NCBI GenBank assembly: GCA_947627805.1
Contig: CANQXB010000001.1
Coordinates: forward strand, 24,836-88,835
DNA: 64,000 bases
Origin: an uncultured Bacilli bacterium
GTDB lineage: Bacteria > Bacillota_I > Bacilli_A > RF39 > UBA660
Direction: 5' to 3'
Each line of letters starts with the position of its first letter. Positions within the stretch are counted from its first letter, which is position 1. Below are positions 1 through 64,000 of this stretch, piece after piece. The notes beneath the pieces are model-generated. The model saw only the letters and a program-made list of their open reading frames with translations, was not told where the DNA came from and searched no databases. The translations under genes were made by a program, and so were the position numbers.

Positions 1-243
1 CTTTACTCATTAAATAATTTAGTAGATGTTATATCTACCACAGGGCAGCTTGCCCGCATAGGTGTATGGTCACATCCTGGTCTAATGATGATTATTAATG
101 GTGAAGAAATTAGAGTTACCGCAAGTGGTTATTATGAATTAGATGCAATTCTTATCACTTCTCTTGGAATTGTTGCTCCTGATAACAATTATTCTAATTT
201 CTTTACAATTGATTACGAATATGACGAAGATGTAGAAGGATAA
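1..243 (+). CDS. C-terminal fragment of an upstream virion structural gene; runs off the window start
   Basis: Frame 1 is open from nt 1 to TAA at 241-243, followed by RBS AAAGGAGG for the next gene. Confidence 0.4.
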   Translation, partial: LYSLNNLVDVISTTGQLARIGVWSHPGLMMIINGEEIRVTASGYYELDAILITSLGIVAPDNNYSNFFTIDYEYDEDVEG

Positions 244-255
244 AGGAGGCGCAGC

Positions 256-2763
256 ATGGATTCGCTTTACGGAGGCCATCAAGGAATTAGCTTTGTTCTA
301 AAAGCATCTTATCCATCTGTCGCTCAAATGGTTGCTGCTTTTAAAGGTGGCGCAAACTATACAGCTGTATGGTATGGTGAATTTGTTTTAATAGATACAC
401 CTAATAAAAATGATGCAGATAATGGCAAAGTTTATCGTCGTGGTCTTGATTATCAGAATAATATGGGTGGCGCTGAATATATTGGACAAATTGTTGGTCC
501 AAGCAGTGGTACACCATATTTTCAATTAGATGATCTTGATGAAGTCAAAGAAAAAGCGCAAGAAGCTATTGATGAATTAACATGGAAGAAATATCCAACA
601 GGCCGCGATGAAGATGGTAAATATATTGTTTCTACTAATGGTGACGGCTCAGATATTGGAGAATTTGCTTTTGGCAGGACTAATGCATTAGTACCTGGTA
701 AACAAGGTGAACAATTTAATGATGATATTAAATATACGTGGGTAAATATTCGTAAAGATAATGCGGATGCAGATTCATGGTTTTATGTTGGTTTTGAAAT
801 TCCTTACCTAGTAATTGATTACCAAGTTAATTCTGCAAGCCCTTATAACGATTTAGGAAATCGTGTTGATTTAGCAACAATTGAACGTATAGATAACTAT
901 ACTCATCCATTTTATGAAGAATGGCGATTAAATGTTCCAAAAGGTGTTAAAGGTGATACATTAAGTAATTTGCGAGTTATTGTACCGCAAGCACAAGATA
1001 TTATTTATGATATTGATAATATTACCACTTCTGTAGATCTTTCAACAGGTAAATTTACTACCACTCTTGGAAAACCGGGATATGATGGACAGCAAGATGA
1101 TATCACGGGTGGTCGTGCTATTTTAGTATTTGATTATTCTTATTATGATGATACAGCACAAGGCACTACTGTTACTGTTTATGTTGCTGATTATAATTTA
1201 GTGCGGGCTGTTAATTTAGATGATGATGGTACTTTGCGGTTAGAGATGACTCATGAAGATGAAGTTGTCTTTGAAAAGAAAATTCGTTGGATTGATTTAA
1301 TTTCTTTGACTAACGGTAATGGTCAAGATGGTGGTCATTTTACTTTTAGATATAATAATGATAATCCAAGACAGATAGATGAATTTGATATTTCTTGGAT
1401 TAAAGGTCTTGAAATAGATGATGATGGTTCTATAATTTATACTTATGCGGGAACACCAGATAGTTTACCTGAAGGAAACCGCCGCATTGCAGAAGGTGTA
1501 TATAGAGTTGAAGATTTCTTACAATGGATTTCCGCAGTATCTTTAAATTCTGATACTGGCGAGTTTACTGTTACTAATAATAGAAGTGAAACTATTTATA
1601 GTACAGTTTTAGATTGGATTAAAAGTATTCAACTTGATCAAGATGGTACTCTTCATTTGCGTCATACAAAAGACAATCGAGATGAACAATTAGTGCATGC
1701 AATTAAATGGGTAACTGATGTTGATCTTAATTTACAAACTGGCATCTTCCAAATAAATTTTAATTATGGAGATCCATTAACTGTACAACTTGATTGGATT
1801 AATGATCTTTATATTGATGAAGCAACTGGTGAAATCGCAGTTCATCATATAAGTGATGCGCATAACACTGACACCACTGCTGGCGGGCAAAAAGGTAAAA
1901 TTTTAGATGCTAAGTTAAAAATTATAGTAAAAGCACAAATTGGCTCTGATGGTACTATTGATTTTATAACTAACACTGGTAATGTTATTTCTTTGCAAAA
2001 TGCTGGATTTGAAGGCGGCGCTTTTAGATTTAAAACACTAGATGATGTACGACTTCAAACTCCAATAGCTGCGGATAAGCATATTCAAGTAAAATATAGT
2101 ACCGATGTAACTTACCAAAATATTGGTAATCCAATTAATTATATTCAAGATATGGTGGTCAGAAATACTGACTTTCATTTATTGGTTCTTTATAATGATC
2201 CTACTCATAGACCTACCGCGGAACAGTTAGATGAACAAGGTAAGTGGCATGGCTATAGTTGGATCGCTGATATACAAGGGTCAGATGGTTCTAACTATGG
2301 CCCATCTGTATATTGGCAAGATTTAGGGACTATTAAAGATCAAAGTGGTCTTTTAATTGGTTTTAATGTAACAGAAGATAAAATTACAGGTTCTTTATTT
2401 GATGATATTATCTCTTATCTAAATGGTACTTATCCTGATGGTTTAACTGAAGAACAAAATGAACGGGGCGGATTACCACTAAAAGGAAAAATAGTCACTT
2501 ATAGCAAAGACGTTGGAGATAGTAAAGAATATTATGCTTTTGATTATAATGCTCATTCATGGTATTATTTAGGAAAGTTAGAAGATAGCGGTGATATGCG
2601 GGATGCTAGAGCTATTCTTACTCCATATTCTGGAGCACAAAGACAAGAAATGATTCAGAAACTGACAACAAGTGGCTTGCTTTTTACTATTGATACGCAA
2701 GTAACTTCTTCTGATACTAATATACCAAGATACTGGAGTTGGGATTACAACCAATGGACATAG
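256..2763 (+). CDS. large virion structural protein, probably a tail or baseplate component
   Basis: 835-aa ORF with a strong RBS; Asp/Gly/Thr-rich beta-type composition; sits in the late block next to the tail fibre and lysis genes. Confidence 0.6.
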   Translation: MDSLYGGHQGISFVLKASYPSVAQMVAAFKGGANYTAVWYGEFVLIDTPNKNDADNGKVYRRGLDYQNNMGGAEYIGQIVGPSSGTPYFQLDDLDEVKEKAQEAIDELTWKKYPTGRDEDGKYIVSTNGDGSDIGEFAFGRTNALVPGKQGEQFNDDIKYTWVNIRKDNADADSWFYVGFEIPYLVIDYQVNSASPYNDLGNRVDLATIERIDNYTHPFYEEWRLNVPKGVKGDTLSNLRVIVPQAQDIIYDIDNITTSVDLSTGKFTTTLGKPGYDGQQDDITGGRAILVFDYSYYDDTAQGTTVTVYVADYNLVRAVNLDDDGTLRLEMTHEDEVVFEKKIRWIDLISLTNGNGQDGGHFTFRYNNDNPRQIDEFDISWIKGLEIDDDGSIIYTYAGTPDSLPEGNRRIAEGVYRVEDFLQWISAVSLNSDTGEFTVTNNRSETIYSTVLDWIKSIQLDQDGTLHLRHTKDNRDEQLVHAIKWVTDVDLNLQTGIFQINFNYGDPLTVQLDWINDLYIDEATGEIAVHHISDAHNTDTTAGGQKGKILDAKLKIIVKAQIGSDGTIDFITNTGNVISLQNAGFEGGAFRFKTLDDVRLQTPIAADKHIQVKYSTDVTYQNIGNPINYIQDMVVRNTDFHLLVLYNDPTHRPTAEQLDEQGKWHGYSWIADIQGSDGSNYGPSVYWQDLGTIKDQSGLLIGFNVTEDKITGSLFDDIISYLNGTYPDGLTEEQNERGGLPLKGKIVTYSKDVGDSKEYYAFDYNAHSWYYLGKLEDSGDMRDARAILTPYSGAQRQEMIQKLTTSGLLFTIDTQVTSSDTNIPRYWSWDYNQWT

Positions 2764-46289: not shown

Positions 46290-46781
46290 TTAAACAATAG
46301 AGCACAAAATACGCACTTCTCCTGGATTAGGATAATAAATGCCATTCTCTTCTACAATAAAATTAATCTTAGACATAAAATTCTCTAATGCATTATATTG
46401 CGGATAATTTCCATCCTCATCAGGCTCAACATCATAATCAGTAACCATAACTTGATCAGTTTCCGCAAGCAGATTTAACTCAATATAATCATACCAAGTA
46501 GTTTGCGCGGCACTTCGCATAGAGACAGAGAACTCACCATCTTCATCATCTTCTTTGCTATCAAAATATTTGCTAGCAATAGGTCCAAGTTCTTTAGGAA
46601 GGCGTCGCCAGCTACCTTCAAACTTTTCAAACAGCAATTCAAACAACTCATAATCTGCATTACCAGTATCTAGCCACAAAGGCTCAAACTCGCCATCTTC
46701 ATTTTTAATATAAAAAGTTACATCTTCCCAAGAACCATCCTCATTACGCTTTTCAATAAAAAATCTAGGGGTGCGGCTCAT
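46290..46781 (-). CDS. acidic hypothetical protein
   Basis: Tracked ORF 46290..46808; likely start is ATG at 46781 behind RBS AAAGGAGAG, which avoids overlapping the tRNA. Confidence 0.5.
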   Translation of the reverse strand: MSRTPRFFIEKRNEDGSWEDVTFYIKNEDGEFEPLWLDTGNADYELFELLFEKFEGSWRRLPKELGPIASKYFDSKEDDEDGEFSVSMRSAAQTTWYDYIELNLLAETDQVMVTDYDVEPDEDGNYPQYNALENFMSKINFIVEENGIYYPNPGEVRILCSIV

Positions 46782-46800
46782 AGTAACTCTCCTTTTTTGT

Positions 46801-46895
46801 TGGTACACGCGGAGGGACTTGAACCCCCATCGTGCGCTAATCTGGCGCTTATCTCGGGTATAAACCGAGCGCTCTGCCCATTGAGCTACGCGTGC
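46801..46895 (-). tRNA. atypical 95-nt tRNA with a 24-nt variable arm and apparent anticodon UAU
   Basis: GCACGCG-TA-GCTC/AATGGGCA/GAGC-G-CTCGG/TTTATAC/CCGAG, then variable arm with GCGC/GCGC stem, then GGGGG/TTCAAGT/CCCTC-CGCGTGT-A-CCA; identity uncertain. Confidence 0.6.
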
Positions 46896-46917
46896 ACTTT
46901 CCCTTTCTTACAATTAT

Positions 46918-46946
46918 ATTATAACATTAATATTTTTTGCTGTCAA
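46918..46946 (-). promoter_or_regulatory. sigma-A-type promoter, perfect TTGACA, 17 nt, TATAAT with TGn; drives the tRNA and the downstream gene
   Basis: Minus-strand reading TTGACAgcaaaaaatattaatgtTATAAT. Confidence 0.6.
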
Positions 46947-46954
46947 AATAATTT

Positions 46955-48145
46955 TTAAACTGCCTTAAAATTATAAATAGGAGTTAATTGCTCAGTTATA
47001 ACAAAACCATTACGAGTTAGGAGTTCTTCTAATGCTTTACTACTATTATATGTATTAGGAGCTTCATCTAATGTAGACTCAGTAACACAACTAGAATAAA
47101 TTCCATTCATTGATGCCTTATATGACTCTATTTGCAATAGTAGATGTGCGGCTGTACGTGACATTACACGACCAGCCCCATGCGGCAAACTATTATTCCA
47201 ATCTTCGTTCTCACACCCTTCGATAATAAGTAGTCCATCCCGCATATTTAACGGAACTAGACATCTCGCGTTTGTACAGTCGATAGCACCTTTTCGCACT
47301 ATATGATTATCTACATCAACGTAATTATGTAAACTTGTTGCAACTATAGAATAATTATAATAACCTATTAACATATTGGCCATAGCAATATGACTTACTA
47401 AAGACCAATTTGCACAAACTAACATATCATTTAAATAATCATCTAAATCATTACCTTCAATATAAGCTAAATCAGACTCTAAAGCATACTTTTCAATTTG
47501 TATTCCATGTAACATATCTAACATCTGGCTAATTAATTGTTCTTGATGCGTCTCTTTCCCATATGAAATAACAGCTTCCCGCATTGTTTTAAGTAGGTTA
47601 CCTTTACTTTTGGATTTTTCTACAGCAATTTTCTGATAAAAATTACAAACTTGTACTCCTAAATTGCGGGAACCACTATGTATAACAAGATAAACACGAC
47701 CATTGTCATCTACATCTAATTCGATATAGTGATTGCCTCCTCCAAGAGTGCCTTGAGAATTGATAATACGTTGATGATTACTAATATAATCCCAACACAT
47801 CAATTCATTATAATCAAAAGAAGAAACAGAATGATTATGAATATTTCTTCCTGTTGGAATAACAGAACGTACTTTTTTATCAAATTTATCTAAATCTGTC
47901 ATATCTTCTAAGAACCAAGGGGTTTCAAATAGCGATATGCGGCAACCAATATCAACTCCTACAGTATTAGGACAAATCTTATCACTAAATGTAGAGGTAA
48001 AACCAACACAAGACCCTTTACCCGCATGCGCATCTGGCATAATGCGGATTTTCTGGTCCACATACGCAGGACTTGCCGCAATTTCTGCAACCTGGTCTAA
48101 TAGTTTTTTGGTTTTATTTAAAGCAAAATTTTTAACATCAGTCAT
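46955..48145 (-). CDS. rtcB: RtcB RNA 3'-phosphate/2',3'-cyclic-phosphate ligase
   Basis: MPDAHAGKG, GVDIGC, GGGNHYIE and HSGSRNLG RtcB motifs; start moved to ATG 48145 behind RBS AGAAAGGGG. Confidence 0.8.
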   Translation of the reverse strand: MTDVKNFALNKTKKLLDQVAEIAASPAYVDQKIRIMPDAHAGKGSCVGFTSTFSDKICPNTVGVDIGCRISLFETPWFLEDMTDLDKFDKKVRSVIPTGRNIHNHSVSSFDYNELMCWDYISNHQRIINSQGTLGGGNHYIELDVDDNGRVYLVIHSGSRNLGVQVCNFYQKIAVEKSKSKGNLLKTMREAVISYGKETHQEQLISQMLDMLHGIQIEKYALESDLAYIEGNDLDDYLNDMLVCANWSLVSHIAMANMLIGYYNYSIVATSLHNYVDVDNHIVRKGAIDCTNARCLVPLNMRDGLLIIEGCENEDWNNSLPHGAGRVMSRTAAHLLLQIESYKASMNGIYSSCVTESTLDEAPNTYNSSKALEELLTRNGFVITEQLTPIYNFKAV

Positions 48146-48178
48146 AAAAAAAATCCCCTTTCTTAACAATATAAATAT

Positions 48179-48207
48179 ATTATATTATAATAGAAAGGGG
48201 TTGTCAA
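48179..48207 (-). promoter_or_regulatory. sigma-A-type promoter, TTGACA, 17 nt, TATAAT
   Basis: Minus-strand reading TTGACAacccctttctattataaTATAAT. Confidence 0.5.
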
Positions 48208-48229
48208 AGAAAAAATAAGCAGTTTTTTA

Positions 48230-49250
48230 GGTTAACGCCAAGACACTGCAAAACTTGGCGGATGTTAGCAGGCGGTGAGCCTATGATTCGTTTATATAAA
48301 CAGGCGGAGTACTTACTATCGACTATATGATCTTTCTCCGCGTCATATTTAACGTGTGACCAACCACGGTAAGCGTTTAATTTTTTTGACTGTTTATTTT
48401 ATTAATTATTAAATATAGATTTACAAAACTCTTAAACTGACTTTCGCCATACTCGCAAGCCCGCATAAATATTCAGCCACGTAGGAGATAAGTCTGACTC
48501 ATAAGGAGCGACCTTATAAGTTCTTACCCCGGCATCTTACCATATCTACGAGTGGATTGGTTACCACTAACTTTCACCCACCATTCAGAAATTGAATGGG
48601 ACTTTTTCCTCAAAAGCCAAATTAATTATTATTTAGTCTATTAATCTTCCTCAATTTGGGCTACTCGCTCTTTGAACTTTCCTTATAGTTAATTACTTAG
48701 CATCAACGAGGAAACTTACTTATTTGGATTCCCTAACGTACTATGAGGTTCCACCCTCATGCCTAATTAGGGTTCAAAGGTGCGCTGCACCCGCCTATTA
48801 CGCAAGCGGAAAGATAAAGCCTTTTTATACGAAACTCTTTTGAGCGCCATTCTCTTTTGTTGGAAGTTTCTTCCTTCTGCGACTTGGTTACCTGCTGCCG
48901 CAATGTCCGCCCACGATAAAAGTATCCTTTTATCGGACAGGCACTTAAGGGATGCCCCTGACCGCATGGTATTGCGCATGCACAAGGTTGTAAAGAGTTT
49001 TGTAAATCTATATTCAATTTTCAATTTACATTTTAGGTACCTTATTTTGTAAGGCACCTAATGTGGGGCATCTATTTTGTAGACGCCCCACGTAAATGAC
49101 TTAACATTAAGTCATATAAACTACTGCCCTATGATGTAGTTTACACCCAGCAACCCTCCGCTGCCCTGATAACCCTTCCCAGTAACCGATTGATTTGCAG
49201 AACGCAGGCTCAATCACATAGAACAGATCGTATGTTTAGTTTAAAGCCTT
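48230..49250 (-). ncRNA. candidate large structured non-coding RNA (about 1 kb), unclassified
   Basis: No ORF over about 95 aa on either strand; local GC far above the genome background; 12 or more strong hairpins (for example CCGATAAAAG-tatc-CTTTTATCGG, GTGGGGC...GCCCCAC, ATGACTTAA-cat-TTAAGTCAT, CCATTCA-gaaatt-GAATGG); two tandem consensus promoters directly upstream. Confidence 0.4.
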
Positions 49251-49257
49251 GATTTAT

Positions 49258-49286
49258 ATTATATCATTTTTTTATTTTATTGTCAA
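49258..49286 (-). promoter_or_regulatory. sigma-A-type promoter, TTGACA, 17 nt, TATAAT
   Basis: Minus-strand reading TTGACAataaaataaaaaaatgaTATAAT, facing the structured region. Confidence 0.5.
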
Positions 49287-49320
49287 AAGTTTTTTATTTT
49301 TCCTTTCTCTCTCCTTTTAT

Positions 49321-49349
49321 ATTATAACATATATTTTTCTATCTGTCTA
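49321..49349 (-). promoter_or_regulatory. sigma-A-type promoter, TAGACA, 17 nt, TATAAT with TGn
   Basis: Minus-strand reading TAGACAgatagaaaaatatatgtTATAAT. Confidence 0.5.
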
Positions 49350-49379
49350 GTAAAATTTTTAACTGTTTCTGGTCGCGAA

Positions 49380-49620
49380 GCCTAGGTGCTGCTCCTAGTT
49401 ACCCCAGCTTATGAGACTGGGTCAGATACTGACCTGCCGCCCGCATTTTGGTTGCTCCCGGTGGTTACGCTCCACCCGCACAATACTTATGAGGCATTGC
49501 TAGACACTAGTCAAGAGAGCAATGCATGTATCTTTACTCTTGAGTTCCTTACGCCAAGCTTGCGCCCAGCCGCGGACTCGAACCACGTCAAGCATCATTA
49601 ACATATTACTTTTACGTCTA
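49380..49620 (-). ncRNA. candidate structured ncRNA (about 240 nt) ending in a tRNA-like T-arm and acceptor 3' strand
   Basis: GC-rich hairpins (CCCAGC-ttatgaga-CTGGG, GGTCAG-atac-TGACC, GCATTGCT...AGCAATGC); 3' part CGTGG-TTCGAGT-CCGCG-GCTGGGC-G is a perfect T-arm plus acceptor 3' strand with no matching 5' acceptor strand; own promoter at 49740-49768. Confidence 0.45.
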
Positions 49621-49739
49621 AAAGTAAATTATAGTTAATTACTTTTGTAAAGATACATCTTTTCTACTTATAATAAGTAGAAAGTCTAATAAGAGATTCA
49701 CAACCCGTCGGCTTTTGTTATCTCCTTTCGATATTTATA

Positions 49740-49768
49740 TTATATCATAAAAATTTTTATCTGTCTAG
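49740..49768 (-). promoter_or_regulatory. sigma-A-type promoter, TAGACA, 17 nt, TATAAT with TGn
   Basis: Minus-strand reading TAGACAgataaaaatttttatgaTATAAT. Confidence 0.5.
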
Positions 49769-49864
49769 GTAAATTTTATATTGAATCAGCTTTGACACTT
49801 GAAGTCACAGTTTGTGATTTCAAATTTAAACCTATCTCTCATTGGTAAAAAACAATACCTATAG

Positions 49865-49939
49865 TCTGCCTAGCAGGATTTGAACCTACGACACCTTGCT
49901 CCCAAAACAAGTGCGCTAACCAAACTGCGCTATAGACAG
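49865..49939 (-). tRNA. tRNA-Pro (anticodon TGG), CCA not encoded
   Basis: CTGTCTA-TA-GCGC/AGTTTGGTTA/GCGC-A-CTTGT/TTTGGGA/GCAAG-GTGTC-GTAGG/TTCAAAT/CCTGC-TAGGCAG-A; flanked by inverted repeat TACCTATAG / CTATAGGTA. Confidence 0.75.
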
Positions 49940-49949
49940 GCTATAGGTA

Positions 49950-50249
49950 TTACAACTCTTCTAAGAAAACCTCAATCTTCTTAGCAAGAACAGCTTTTGT
50001 TTTGCGGCCCCGCACAAGATCATCTTTAATTTCATATAAAAATTCTGTCATTTCATTTATATCTTGTGCTTTTGAATCGTTCCGATATTCATAATAATCA
50101 CGATCCTCAGTTGCTGCATATAATTGAGCTTTTAAATTTTCTACTTCATCTTGACAGAGATACTGTCTAACATCATTAATTTCGTCACTGTCAAAGCCAG
50201 CTTCCCGCAAACTTTCTTCACAAGAATATTGACTATAGATGAATTTCAT
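49950..50249 (-). CDS. acidic hypothetical protein
   Basis: 99-aa ORF with a long structured leader. Confidence 0.45.
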   Translation of the reverse strand: MKFIYSQYSCEESLREAGFDSDEINDVRQYLCQDEVENLKAQLYAATEDRDYYEYRNDSKAQDINEMTEFLYEIKDDLVRGRKTKAVLAKKIEVFLEEL

Positions 50250-50541
50250 ATTTATTCCTTTCTTTTGGAATAAAAATTTTTTTCTGGTGGAGCTGCTGAC
50301 TTACGATAGCCAGGTCCTAACATACTAATTACTAAATCCTTAATATAATCTAAAAGATAAAATTAGTTAATAAATGTGCCTTTTAATGATTCTTCCTCGC
50401 ACGTAAAAGGCATCGGTGCGAGGTATAGGCTTATGCTGCCATTGCAAAATTAAATTTGTCAGTTAATTTTTTAAAGGTGATTACAGATTTAGCTTTCATA
50501 TCCTAGTCGAATCCTTTCAGCCCCTTTCTCATTATATTAAT

Positions 50542-50571
50542 ATTATAACATATTTATTATCTGGCTGTCAA
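50542..50571 (-). promoter_or_regulatory. sigma-A-type promoter, TTGACA, 18 nt, TATAAT with TGn
   Basis: Minus-strand reading TTGACAgccagataataaatatgtTATAAT. Confidence 0.45.
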
Positions 50572-50574
50572 GAT

Positions 50575-51132
50575 TTACATTATAAAGAACTCTGAAAATT
50601 CATTTGTATTATAACAAGTAGGACCACTATAAACTCCACTTGCGTTACCACGATAAATTTCAAAATGAAGATGCGGGCCTGTACTATTTCCAGTAGACCC
50701 AACCACCCCAATTTGTTCACCTTTCCGCACATGTTGTCCAAAAGTAACACGAATGTCAGGCTGATGCGCGTAAGCAGTAGTCAAATTTAAATCTGGGTGA
50801 TATATTTGTACATAATAGCCATAAGTGCCGCACCACCCCGCATAAATTATTTCACCATTGGCAGCTGCATAAATAGGAGTATACATAGTCGCGGGAATAT
50901 CGCAAGCAGGATGCCCCGCGTAAGTAGTATAATATGAGTTATCTGTTAGTGGCCATAGTAAACGGCCATCAGTTGAATGTCGCGCACCACCACCATCAGG
51001 AATCCATATTGAATAAGTAATCCCTGGAAGAGGAGAAAGTGGAATCCGCACTTCTTGTGCGGAAGCTACAGTAGGTAACATAAATAGACATAGTAATGCA
51101 GTTATGCAACTGCCGCATATTTTGTGTAACAT
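50575..51132 (-). CDS. secreted M23/LytM-family peptidase
   Basis: Signal peptide plus HxxxD and GPHLHFEIY motifs. Confidence 0.7.
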   Translation of the reverse strand: MLHKICGSCITALLCLFMLPTVASAQEVRIPLSPLPGITYSIWIPDGGGARHSTDGRLLWPLTDNSYYTTYAGHPACDIPATMYTPIYAAANGEIIYAGWCGTYGYYVQIYHPDLNLTTAYAHQPDIRVTFGQHVRKGEQIGVVGSTGNSTGPHLHFEIYRGNASGVYSGPTCYNTNEFSEFFIM

Positions 51133-62966: not shown

Positions 62967-63915
62967 TTGTGGTGCGCACATATAACAAGCGTTGTCAACA
63001 AAAATATTTTAAAATACATAACCATAACAAATTCTCGAACCTTCAAATTTATTATTTTGTTAAAAGTTAGCAATTTTAATGTTCAAACATACAATATTTT
63101 GTATTTTTTCAATATGTTTTTGATACAATATTTAGTATAGAATAGCGCAGTTAGTATAATTTTTTTTCAACCTACCAAATACTCGAGAGATAATAAAGTT
63201 AATAAATTTTGATAATGGATTTTGTTTATATTTAATATATATAAATTTTATACATATTTAATTTATTTTTAATATTTAAAAAATGATAAATCTTGAATCC
63301 TAGAAAATTTATAATAGGTGCGGAGCTGTGGAAAACTCAATAAAATTAATGGAAAACTTGTTGAAAGCTATTGAATTTTCAATGGAAAACTTGTTGAAAA
63401 CTTGTGGACAATCGTCTGAAGAGACAGGGCTAGCATAATTTTTCCTCAACCTGACAAGGACACGAGAGATAACAAATTCAATAAATTTTGATAGCAAATT
63501 GCGGGCCTCTGTGATATTAACTTTTTCGCTAGCTAAAACATTCATCTTACAGGGTTGCCGCGTATCAGTACCACCCTTATTACTATTTTCATTTCTACTT
63601 TTGGAATTGGGCTAACTTTAGTTAGTTAAGAATTGTTAAAAATAATTTTCAAGTTTGGGACTCCTAAATAGTTTTCATTTTCACTTTTGGAGACTCACGA
63701 AAAAAGTTTCATTTTAAGTAGAGGTTAGTAGCGCGAGAATCAGCCGAAGAGAATCTCATTTTCATTTCCAAAAGAAGTTTCAGTTCAAAATTTGTCTTTA
63801 CAGATAATAAAAAGTATTGTATAATATAGTCATCAAGAGAGGATAAGCCAGCTTGATAGAAGGAACAAAGTGTGGCTGTCCTGTGGTCTGAACTTTTTAA
63901 CTAGTTAAAAAAGTT

Positions 63916-63944
63916 TTGACAGTATAAAAATTTTATATTATAAT
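63916..63944 (+). promoter_or_regulatory. plus-strand promoter, TTGACA, 17 nt, TATAAT
   Basis: TTGACAgtataaaaattttatatTATAAT near the window end. Confidence 0.45.
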
Positions 63945-64000
63945 ATATGTGTAAGAAAGAGAAAAGAAAGAATAGTTAAAATATAATAAGCACTCCAAGA

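What the first reader, a model, noticed from the sequence alone, without database searches (positions are those of the whole stretch)
48230..49250. About 1 kb ORF-free, GC-rich, hairpin-dense region upstream of rtcB: candidate large structured ncRNA
Seen in sequence: in a genome that is otherwise around 30% GC, this kilobase has no ORF longer than about 95 aa on either strand. It contains many GC-rich perfect stems of 7-10 bp separated by AT-rich linkers. On the minus strand it is preceded by two tandem consensus promoters (49258-49286 and 49321-49349) and followed by another promoter and then rtcB. Inference: large ornate RNAs of phages (GOLLD, ROOL and related) are typically found next to tRNA genes in Firmicutes phages, and this region lies between two tRNA genes. 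It could also be a processed array of smaller Y-RNA-like molecules feeding the neighbouring Ro60 and RtcB machinery. I cannot assign it to any family from memory, so it may be new.
Basis: partly seen in the sequence, partly recalled or inferred. Interest (0 to 1): 0.85.

Follow-up and report, generated by a model that had tools for sequence, protein, structure and literature searches.

The report
Phage ROOL RNA, a known family

Summary
Window 48230-49250 has no credible ORF, is 40.5% GC against 32.8% for the window, is hairpin-dense, and starts just downstream of two near-consensus promoters on the minus strand.

The core, 49011-48418 on the minus strand, is a complete ROOL RNA (Rfam RF03087). 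It scores 324.7 bits against a gathering score of 99.1, with E = 6e-74, and covers model positions 1-574. Of the 159 model pairs, 132 are canonical here. Against the ROOL of a related phage contig (L085) there are 22 compensatory double changes.

The rest of the kilobase is not ROOL:
- A 215-nt leader whose first ~50 nt are conserved in L085, followed by five local hairpins. Two are tandem 12-bp hairpins with the same apical UACAAAAUA.
- A 76-nt element, C1, about 92-95% identical in L085.
- A covarying H-type pseudoknot followed by a U-run, just before the rtcB promoter.

None of these three matches an Rfam family.

The region sits in a phage RNA island with a tmRNA, tRNAs, two non-canonical tRNA(CAU)-like genes, a possible YrlA-like RNA, RtcB and Ro60.

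Verdict: a new member of a known kind, of modest interest.

The parts
49321..49349 (-). Upstream promoter, TAGACA-17-TATAAT with TG. It is part of a repeated promoter cassette.
   Evidence: One search gives 11/12 hexamer matches. Window 49359-49316 is 84% identical to 49777-49734, the promoter in front of the A1 RNA.
49258..49286 (-). Main promoter of the ROOL transcription unit, TTGACA-17-TGnTATAAT. The predicted start is near 49250.
   Evidence: One search gives 12/12 hexamer matches with TG. The promoter and the first ~60 transcribed nt are 76% identical to L085 5143-5254. The start site is inferred, not measured.
49188..49237 (-). B1, the conserved start of the leader. It includes hairpin 49215-49188 (GAUUGA...UCAAUC).
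   Evidence: It is conserved in L085. The hairpin stem carries two compensatory changes (GAUUGA/UCAAUC against AGUUGA/UCAACU), read from the sequences. No Rfam match. No true homologues in IMG/VR or the JGI metagenomes.
49033..49165 (-). Lineage-specific leader hairpins at 49165-49146, 49143-49117, 49115-49096, 49091-49063 (H2) and 49061-49033 (H3). H2 and H3 are 12-bp stems one nt apart, each capped by UACAAAAUA.
   Evidence: Fold z = -6.3. Coordinates. H2 and H3 are the only long hairpins with this loop in the window or in the related loci scanned. They are absent from L085.
48418..49011 (-). ROOL RNA (Rfam RF03087), full length. The closing helix P1 is 49011-48986 with 48437-48415. The variable internal linker is 48657-48581. 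Conservation with L085 extends slightly beyond the model, to 49034-48412.
   Evidence: 324.7 bits (gathering 99.1), E = 6e-74, model 1-574/574; 132 of 159 model pairs canonical; against the L085 ROOL, 84 pairs unchanged, 13 one-sided, 22 compensatory, 11 broken; z = -5.4; 26-nt inverted repeat, 96% complementary, forms P1.
48303..48378 (-). C1, a 76-nt highly conserved element of unknown class. It has hairpin CGUG/CACG and hairpin GCGGAG/CUCCGC, with a possible loop-loop pairing UGGUC/GAUCA.
   Evidence: The 102-nt BLAST match is 92% identical and the core is about 95% identical in the alignment (L085 8004-8105). There it sits inside a tRNA array, 1.3 kb from that ROOL. The best Rfam match is SAM_alpha at 10.6 bits, E = 5, which is noise. 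The loop-loop pairing is my reading and is untested.
48209..48261 (-). C2, an H-type pseudoknot followed by a U-run (48218-48209). Stem 1 is CCGCCAAG/CUUGGCG. Loop bases GCAGU pair with ACUGC after an A-rich tail. It is the likely 3' end of the transcription unit.
   Evidence: Four instances: window, L007, L008 and L085; 96% of cells paired, 6 of 13 pairs with compensatory changes, slid controls 26-44% paired. No Rfam match. No canonical terminator elsewhere on this strand. The terminator role is inferred.
48179..48207 (-). Separate promoter of rtcB, followed by the rtcB gene (48145-46955).
   Evidence: 12/12 hexamer matches. (PF01139, E = 5e-49). The true start at 48145 is read from the sequence and confirmed by an exact 396-aa match.

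Best explanation
The centre of the region (49011-48418, minus strand) is a phage-encoded ROOL RNA, a member of a known family of ~580-nt ornate RNAs of phages and prophages.

Proposed sequence of events, with the basis of each step marked:
1. Host sigma-70 RNA polymerase starts at the consensus promoter 49286-49258, with a second promoter 63 nt upstream. The promoters are shown in the sequence; their use is inferred.
2. It transcribes a precursor of about 1.03 kb: a 215-nt hairpin-rich leader, ROOL, the small element C1, and a pseudoknot plus U-run at 48261-48209 where transcription probably ends (inferred).
3. ROOL is closed by a near-perfect 26-bp helix formed by its own ends. This brings the 5' and 3' ends together and may serve as a processing stalk, as in rRNA operons (helix shown; processing inferred).
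4. By homology with the solved ROOL env-120 structure, the mature RNA should self-assemble without protein into a D4-symmetric homo-octameric hollow cage, with its AT-rich variable linker (48657-48581) inside (established for the family; not tested here).

The biological role of ROOL is unknown for the whole family. In this phage it belongs to an island devoted to tRNA, translation and RNA repair functions: a tmRNA, tRNAs, tRNA-like RNAs, RtcB and Ro60. My best guess is an abundant, host-polymerase-made RNA that acts on or sequesters translation or tRNA-related components during infection.
For: Rfam cmscan: ROOL at 324.7 bits against a gathering score of 99.1, E = 6e-74, model 1-574, minus strand only.

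Structure: 132 of 159 consensus pairs are canonical here. Against the ROOL of related contig L085 (318 bits) there are 22 compensatory and 13 one-sided changes against 11 broken pairs, at 75% sequence identity.

Sequence block: the conserved ROOL block TTCTGAATGNNGGGTGAAAGTT occurs here and in 70 IMG/VR contigs.

Thermodynamics: z = -5.4.

Other points: promoters; 26-nt terminal inverted repeat; no ORF with a family match.

Family properties come from the literature: occurrence in phages and prophages near tRNA islands, abundance comparable to 16S rRNA in one Ligilactobacillus strain, an octameric cage with an internal disordered linker, and no known function (PMC12286853, PMC5737381).
Against: Nothing argues against the family assignment.

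The transcript limits, the processing at P1 and the cage assembly are untested for this sequence. No canonical intrinsic terminator is found on the minus strand, so the 3' end is uncertain.

Adjacency to RtcB and Ro60 is not a family trait. None of 70 ROOL loci has either gene in the flank fetched. In relative L085, ROOL is followed directly by tRNAs, with no RtcB in the 8.5-kb contig. A functional link to RNA repair is therefore weak.
Confidence: 0.93

Rival explanations
1. The whole kilobase is one functional RNA larger than canonical ROOL: a lineage-specific ROOL variant whose 5' leader (B1 plus hairpins) and 3' trailer (C1, C2) stay attached and contribute to function.
For: A single strong promoter pair lies upstream and no terminator appears before 48218. 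The promoter and B1 are conserved upstream of ROOL in L085. L085 has an even longer structured leader of 890 nt, z = -5.05, with no Rfam hit.
Against: The distance and content between B1 and ROOL are not conserved: about 155 nt here against about 820 nt in L085, with no similarity. C1 lies 1.3 kb from ROOL, within a tRNA array, in L085. The C2 motif occurs in L007 and L008 next to other small RNAs and a tRNA. The 26-bp P1 helix delimits ROOL as a self-contained domain.
Confidence: 0.12
2. The region is a processed array of small Y-RNA-like molecules serving the phage Ro60 and RtcB.
For: Ro60 and RtcB are present. C1 behaves as an independent, tRNA-sized module that sits in a tRNA array in L085. 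Just upstream, outside the finding, A1 has a T-arm, an acceptor-like hairpin and a UCGAAAGG motif near its predicted 5' end that recall YrlA (PMC4201824).
Against: About 60% of the region is one 594-nt ROOL. Within 48230-49250 there is no T-loop motif, no tRNA-like call even with relaxed ARAGORN settings that is not an artefact, and no Y RNA hit. ROOL loci elsewhere lack Ro60 and RtcB.
Confidence: 0.05
3. ROOL is excised by flanking self-cleaving elements and circularised by the adjacent RtcB. C1 resembles the P1 and linker part of pistol ribozymes, and ribozyme products (2',3'-cyclic phosphate and 5'-OH) are RtcB substrates.
For: The C1 stretch CGUGGUUGGUCACACGUUAAAUAU matches the P1 plus linker of a canonical pistol found in a viral contig (L091: CGUGGUUUGAGCCACGUUAAAUAG). 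A loop-loop pairing analogous to the pistol pseudoknot can be drawn. rtcB follows directly. The P1 helix juxtaposes the ROOL ends.
Against: There is no Rfam Pistol hit even in a 216-nt search at E <= 10. The pistol core (AAG before and GCG after the pseudoknot strand), P3 and the strict 2-nt GU junction (PMC4604425) cannot be placed. No ribozyme candidate lies 5' of ROOL. In L085, C1 is not adjacent to ROOL and no rtcB is nearby.
Confidence: 0.03
4. A protein-coding gene, whether spliced, frameshifted or unusually small, spans the region.
For: ORFs of 84-96 aa exist on both strands.
Against: None has a Pfam match. All lie inside the ROOL structure, and the changes against L085 preserve base pairs rather than a reading frame. 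Gene callers left the region empty in the identical contig L001.
Confidence: 0.01

Closest known systems
ROOL RNA (Rfam RF03087; Weinberg et al. 2017, PMC5737381; cryo-EM structure Kretsch et al. 2025, PMC12286853)
   Same: Full-length match to the covariance model, a conserved multi-junction secondary structure with compensatory changes, conserved sequence blocks, an AT-rich variable internal linker, a size of 594 nt against a family mean of 581, and a phage location next to tRNA genes.
   Different: The sequence is fairly divergent from other ROOLs fetched (about 60-66% to IMG/VR examples, 75% to L085). It has its own consensus promoter pair and a hairpin-rich 215-nt leader. It sits directly upstream of rtcB in an island with a tmRNA and Ro60, a context not seen in 70 other ROOL loci.
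GOLLD RNA (RF01998)
   Same: A large ornate phage or prophage RNA near tRNA islands. It forms an RNA-only cage and its function is unknown.
   Different: Its sequence and structure are unrelated. There is no GOLLD hit in the window.
Bacterial rRNA operon layout (working analogy only)
   Same: Tandem strong promoters, a structured leader, a structural RNA enclosed by a long helix formed from its flanks, and small RNAs or tRNAs downstream (directly so in L085).
   Different: No rRNA, and no conserved boxA. Processing by RNase III is only inferred.
Pistol self-cleaving ribozyme (RF02679), considered for element C1
   Same: A CGUG/CACG hairpin followed by GUUAAAUA, as in P1 plus linker of pistol. 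A possible pairing exists between the P1 loop and a downstream strand.
   Different: C1 lacks the conserved core, P3 and the 2-nt cleavage junction, and gives no CM hit. It is not a member.
preQ1-I-type H-type pseudoknots with an A-rich tail, considered for element C2
   Same: The same topology: a hairpin whose loop pairs with the sequence after an A-rich tail, followed by a U-run.
   Different: The stems are longer (7 and 5-6 bp), loop 2 is 1-2 nt with no ligand-binding C, and the tail is 12-13 nt. There is no PreQ1 hit. It lies at the 3' end of non-coding transcripts, not in a 5' UTR.

Membership tests
ROOL RNA (RF03087) | Covariance-model score at or above the curated gathering score (99.1 bits) | tested here: met
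   324.7 bits, E = 5.7e-74 in the whole-window scan, minus strand.
ROOL RNA (RF03087) | Complete architecture, with all stems and multistem junctions of the consensus present | tested here: met
   The alignment covers model 1-574/574 without truncation, and 132 of 159 consensus pairs are canonical.
ROOL RNA (RF03087) | Structure maintained by covariation among homologues | tested here: met
   Against the L085 ROOL: 22 compensatory, 13 one-sided, 84 unchanged and 11 broken pairs. This is a two-sequence comparison, not a statistical R-scape test.
ROOL RNA (RF03087) | Conserved sequence blocks of the 3' domain | tested here: met
   UUCUGAAUGGUGGGUGAAAGUU, GGUCGCUCC and CAGACUUAUCUCC align to high-conservation model columns. 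The first block retrieves 70 ROOL-bearing viral contigs.
ROOL RNA (RF03087) | Poorly conserved internal linker, which lies inside the cage in the solved structure | tested here: met
   An AT-rich insertion at 48657-48581 aligns to the model's unstructured loop, with extra inserted bases. It differs from the L085 linker.
ROOL RNA (RF03087) | The three pseudoknots of the consensus | not tested
   The CM does not score pseudoknots, and I did not have the consensus pseudoknot coordinates to map.
ROOL RNA (RF03087) | Phage or prophage location, often near tRNA genes | tested here: met
   tRNA-Pro lies 0.85 kb upstream and tRNA-Ile 1.5 kb downstream, and the neighbours are phage-type genes. Context as described in PMC12286853 and PMC5737381.
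ROOL RNA (RF03087) | Protein-free assembly into a homo-octameric cage | not testable with these tools
   This needs mass photometry or cryo-EM of the transcript.
GOLLD, OLE, HEARO, group II intron or tmRNA within 48230-49250 | A covariance-model match | tested here: not met
   No such hit at gathering score in the window, nor at E <= 5 in 46700-50700.
Y RNA / YrlA within 48230-49250 | [quoted passage not shown] | tested here: not met
   No GGTTCRANNCC motif lies in the region; the three in the window are at 46815, 49574 and 49876. No Y RNA hit.
Pistol ribozyme (element C1) | P1, P2, P3, a 6-bp pseudoknot, 10 conserved nucleotides and a strict 2-nt GU junction (PMC4604425) | tested here: not met
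   Only P1 and the linker resemble pistol. The core and P3 cannot be placed, and there is no CM hit at E <= 10 in a 216-nt search.

The most novel reading that the evidence does not exclude
ROOL here would not be a stand-alone gene. It would be the centrepiece of a dedicated, rRNA-operon-like transcription unit, with tandem consensus promoters, a conserved leader start, a put- or nut-like pair of identical-loop hairpins, a 26-bp processing stalk, and trailing conserved modules C1 and C2.

That unit is embedded in a phage RNA-repair and quality-control island: a tmRNA, a YrlA-like RNA, Ro60, RtcB, and non-canonical tRNA(CAU)-like RNAs.

On the most novel reading not excluded, ROOL maturation or function is coupled to that machinery. 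Its ends could be generated as cyclic-phosphate and 5'-OH termini and sealed by RtcB. Alternatively the cage could house or shield the tRNA-like RNAs from host anticodon nucleases. Either would give the first functional handle on ROOL.
Probability: 0.07. Interest if true: 0.75.

Novelty: new member of a known kind. Interest (0 to 1): 0.3.

Why it matters
ROOL is one of the few natural RNAs known to build a protein-free cage larger than a ribosome, and its function is still unknown.

A new, divergent member adds little on its own. This copy does have features that could help experiments:
- It has a clearly defined host-type promoter pair.
- It has a very long closing helix.
- Its gene neighbourhood is devoted to tRNA, tmRNA and RNA repair (RtcB, Ro60).

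The flanking elements have no Rfam family and may be small new RNA classes. These are the C1 element, the C2 pseudoknot, and just outside the finding the widespread non-canonical tRNA(CAU)-like RNAs. They are side observations and not the finding itself.

Tried and rejected
- GenBank phages (blastn, distant mode) with 48150-49700: no match.
- RtcB peptide patterns in IMG/VR: no relatives.
- RtcB homologues' contigs (L003-L008): the contigs break just upstream of rtcB, or the context differs. They were useful only for C2 and for a partial ROOL in L006.
- Relatives were finally reached through the 99-aa ORF next to the tmRNA.
- B1 and C1 exact or near-exact patterns in IMG/VR: no hits.
- The B1 pattern in JGI metagenomes: eight chance matches in unrelated contexts.
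- The pistol hypothesis for C1: rejected.
- preQ1-I for C2: no CM support.
- Minimum-free-energy folding of B1, C1 and A1 alone: z-scores between -0.1 and -1.2, uninformative.
- Rfam E-value scans of A1-A3 and of the L085 leader: only noise.
- RtcB or Ro60 linkage to ROOL in 70 viral loci: none.
- A literature search for the non-canonical tRNA(CAU)-like family found nothing relevant.
- Cluster look-up gave no source names.

Full report

Yes. Between 48230 and 49250 the longest ORFs are 96 and 84 aa on the minus strand and 90 aa on the plus strand. None matches a Pfam family. The stretch is 40.5% GC in a window of 32.8% GC (profile).

- 49286-49258, TTGACA-17-TATAAT, 12/12 with an extended -10 TG.
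- 49349-49321, TAGACA-17-TATAAT, 11/12.

It ends at a third, 12/12 site (48207-48179) in front of rtcB. rtcB (PF01139, E = 5e-49; real ATG at 48145) and a Ro60/TROVE gene (56707-55250) are confirmed. So are the flanking tRNA genes, tRNA-Pro 49939-49864 and tRNA-Ile 46895-46801.

Folding energies are far below those of shuffled controls. The z-score is -5.4 for the core and -6.3 for the 5' leader.

**2. What is it?**

A scan of the whole window against Rfam 15 finds a complete ROOL RNA (RF03087) at 49011-48418 on the minus strand. It scores 324.7 bits against a gathering score of 99.1, with E = 6e-74, and covers model positions 1-574 of 574.

I transferred the consensus structure from that alignment onto the sequence. 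Of 159 consensus pairs, 132 are canonical here.

Relatives of this phage are absent from GenBank phages and from IMG/VR. I reached them through proteins. The contig with an identical RtcB (L001) is the same phage. Homologues of the 99-aa ORF beside the tmRNA led to two related lineages in ENA and Logan assemblies.

One of these, L085, carries a full ROOL (318 bits) that is 75% identical to the window copy. Across the consensus pairs the two differ by 22 compensatory double changes and 13 one-sided changes, with 11 pairs broken. This is the pattern expected of a conserved RNA structure, not of a reading frame.

The conserved ROOL block TTCTGAATGNNGGGTGAAAGTT retrieves 70 ROOL-bearing viral contigs. 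The window copy is only about 60-66% identical to the best of them, so it is a fairly divergent member.

The ends of the RNA form a 26-nt, 96% complementary inverted repeat, helix P1. The AT-rich stretch 48657-48581 aligns to the family's unconserved internal linker.

**3. The rest of the kilobase is not ROOL**

*Leader (49250-49012).* The promoter and the first ~60 transcribed bases are conserved upstream of the L085 ROOL, at 76% over 112 nt. A hairpin at 49215-49188 shows two compensatory changes.

What follows is not conserved. The window has about 155 nt with five local hairpins, coordinates. Two of them, at 49091-49063 and 49061-49033, are 12-bp stems one nucleotide apart, each capped by UACAAAAUA. 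They are unique in the window.

L085 has instead about 820 unrelated nucleotides. That stretch is also strongly structured (z = -5.05) and unassigned in Rfam.

*C1 (48378-48303).* This element is strikingly conserved. A 102-nt BLAST match is 92% identical to L085, and the core is about 95% identical in the alignment. The two ROOLs are only 75% identical and the neighbouring ORF99 proteins about 60%. In L085, C1 lies inside a tRNA array, 1.3 kb from that ROOL.

Its 5' half (CGUGGUUGGUCACACGUUAAAUAU) resembles the P1 hairpin and linker of pistol ribozymes (compare L091). However, the pistol core, P3 and the strict two-nucleotide junction (PMC4604425) cannot be placed. No Pistol hit appears even in a 216-nt search. 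I therefore do not file C1 as a pistol, and its class is unknown.

*C2 (48261-48219, U-run to 48209).* This is an H-type pseudoknot. It occurs in four independent sequences, with 96% of cells paired and compensatory changes at 6 of 13 pairs. Slid controls give 26-44% paired.

It is the only terminator-like feature on this strand before the rtcB promoter. I infer that it marks the 3' end of a roughly 1.03-kb primary transcript.

**4. How it most likely works**

What the sequence shows:
- A consensus host-type promoter pair.
- A self-contained ROOL domain closed by a very long helix.
- No intervening terminator.

What I infer: one precursor (leader, ROOL, C1, C2) is made by host RNA polymerase and trimmed. 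The P1 helix would act as a processing stalk, as in rRNA operons.

What is established for the family but untested here: ROOL RNAs are encoded by phages and prophages, often near tRNA islands. They can be as abundant as 16S rRNA yet non-essential in one Ligilactobacillus strain. They assemble without protein into a D4 homo-octameric hollow cage about 280 A across, with the variable linker inside (PMC12286853; family description PMC5737381). No function is known.

The local context suggests a role connected with tRNA or translation during infection. That context includes a tmRNA, tRNAs, tRNA-like RNAs, RtcB and Ro60. The specific link to RtcB and Ro60 is weak:
- None of 70 other ROOL loci has either gene in the flank fetched.
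- In L085, ROOL is followed directly by tRNAs.

**5. Rival readings**

- *A larger single RNA, ROOL plus attached flanks.* This is possible but disfavoured by the mosaic, non-syntenic behaviour of the flanks.
There is no T-loop motif, no credible tRNA-like call and no Y RNA hit.
- *A ribozyme-plus-RtcB circularisation scheme.* It is attractive but unsupported.
- *A hidden coding gene.* Effectively excluded.

**6. Novelty and score**

The RNA is a new, divergent member of a known kind and not a new class.

The interest lies mainly in the unassigned small modules around it and in the RNA-island context. I score overall interest at 0.3.

**7. Outside the finding but relevant**

The GC-rich stretch 49732-49370, just upstream, is a set of three further RNA genes with no Rfam match.

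*A1 (49732 to about 49526).*
- It starts with a conserved UCGAAAGG.
- It has a genuine T-arm, GGUUCGAGUCC, one of only three such motifs in the window.
- A covarying tetraloop hairpin follows the T-arm.
- The layout is conserved in three lineages.
- It recalls the YrlA class of bacterial Y RNAs that accompany Ro60 (PMC4201824).

*A2 (49521-49449) and A3 (49444-49370).*
- These are cloverleaf-like RNAs with the anticodon loop CUCAUAA, 3-4-nt D loops and aberrant T loops.
- ARAGORN finds both only in mitochondrial mode; at relaxed thresholds its standard tRNA search finds A2 alone.
- The A2 type has invariant UCAUAAG and GGAGCGUAACC.
- It occurs in ten large IMG/VR phage contigs.
- It shows strong covariation in the anticodon and T stems: 97% of cells paired, and 39 compensatory cells against 13 in shuffles.

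Noticed in passing
window 49370-49521, minus strand (A2 49521-49449; A3 49444-49370): Two adjacent non-canonical tRNA(CAU)-like genes. Each has a cloverleaf with anticodon loop CUCAUAA, a 3-4-nt D loop, an aberrant T loop (AGCGUAA or AGCAGCA) and an encoded ACCA end. Default ARAGORN and the Rfam tRNA model miss both. ARAGORN's mitochondrial mode finds both, and its relaxed standard tRNA search finds A2 alone. The A2 type, with invariant UCAUAAG and GGAGCGUAACC, occurs in relatives L081 and L085 and in 10 IMG/VR contigs of 10-360 kb. Its anticodon and T stems covary strongly. I found no description of it. It may be a new tRNA-like class of large phages.
   Followed up: partly
window 49526-49732, minus strand (A1), behind promoter 49767-49739: A ~200-nt RNA conserved in three phage lineages. 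It has UCGAAAGG near the predicted 5' end, conserved CGACGGGUU and AGACGU blocks, a true T-arm (CGUGG-UUCGAGU-CCGCG) and then a covarying tetraloop hairpin (GCUGGGC-GCAA-GCUUGGC). The T-arm then acceptor-like hairpin order and the 5' motif resemble YrlA-type Y RNAs. Ro60 lies 5.5 kb upstream on the same strand. There is no Rfam hit (PMC4201824).
   Followed up: partly
window 50285-50524, minus strand: A short (240-nt) phage tmRNA behind a 12/12 promoter (50571-50542). It scores 49.8 bits, just above the Rfam gathering score of 47, and ARAGORN does not call it. By my reading the tag frame ends ...FAMAA-stop. Homologues are in L081 and L085.
   Followed up: partly
window 46801-46895, minus strand: tRNA-Ile(UAU) of 95 nt with a 21-nt extra stem-loop inserted in the variable region, which is unusual for an Ile tRNA. 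Similar 91-nt tRNAs follow rtcB in L007 and L008.
   Followed up: no
L085 5183-6074: In the related phage, about 890 nt lie between the conserved leader start and ROOL. The stretch is ORF-poor, GC-rich and strongly structured (z = -5.05). It has no Rfam match and no similarity to the window or to any fetched locus beyond the first ~70 nt. It may be a second large unassigned RNA.
   Followed up: partly
L008 223-2429: In a relative (GCA_947631045.1), the rtcB gene is split into two ORFs by an insertion of about 1 kb. The insertion carries a LAGLIDADG-type ORF, which suggests an intron or an intein.
   Followed up: no
window 49734-49777, 49316-49359, 46897-46956, about 63896-63970: A repeated promoter cassette (TTTACYTAGACAGATA...TGnTATAAT plus the start of the transcript) precedes several RNA genes. 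Six near-consensus sigma-70 promoters lie on one strand within 4 kb.
   Followed up: partly
L081 8768-8839; L007 1-50; L008 1-70: A further small GC-rich element shares CCUUGG..GGGGACAUUUUCC. It lies between tRNA-like genes or upstream of the C2 pseudoknot in relatives and is not present in the window. It is unassigned.
   Followed up: no
L134 (= L079, CANRPB010000047.1): A related phage contig is binned in 'MAG: uncultured Bacilli bacterium isolate Lapin-018'. This hints at a rabbit-gut Bacilli host for the lineage.
   Followed up: no
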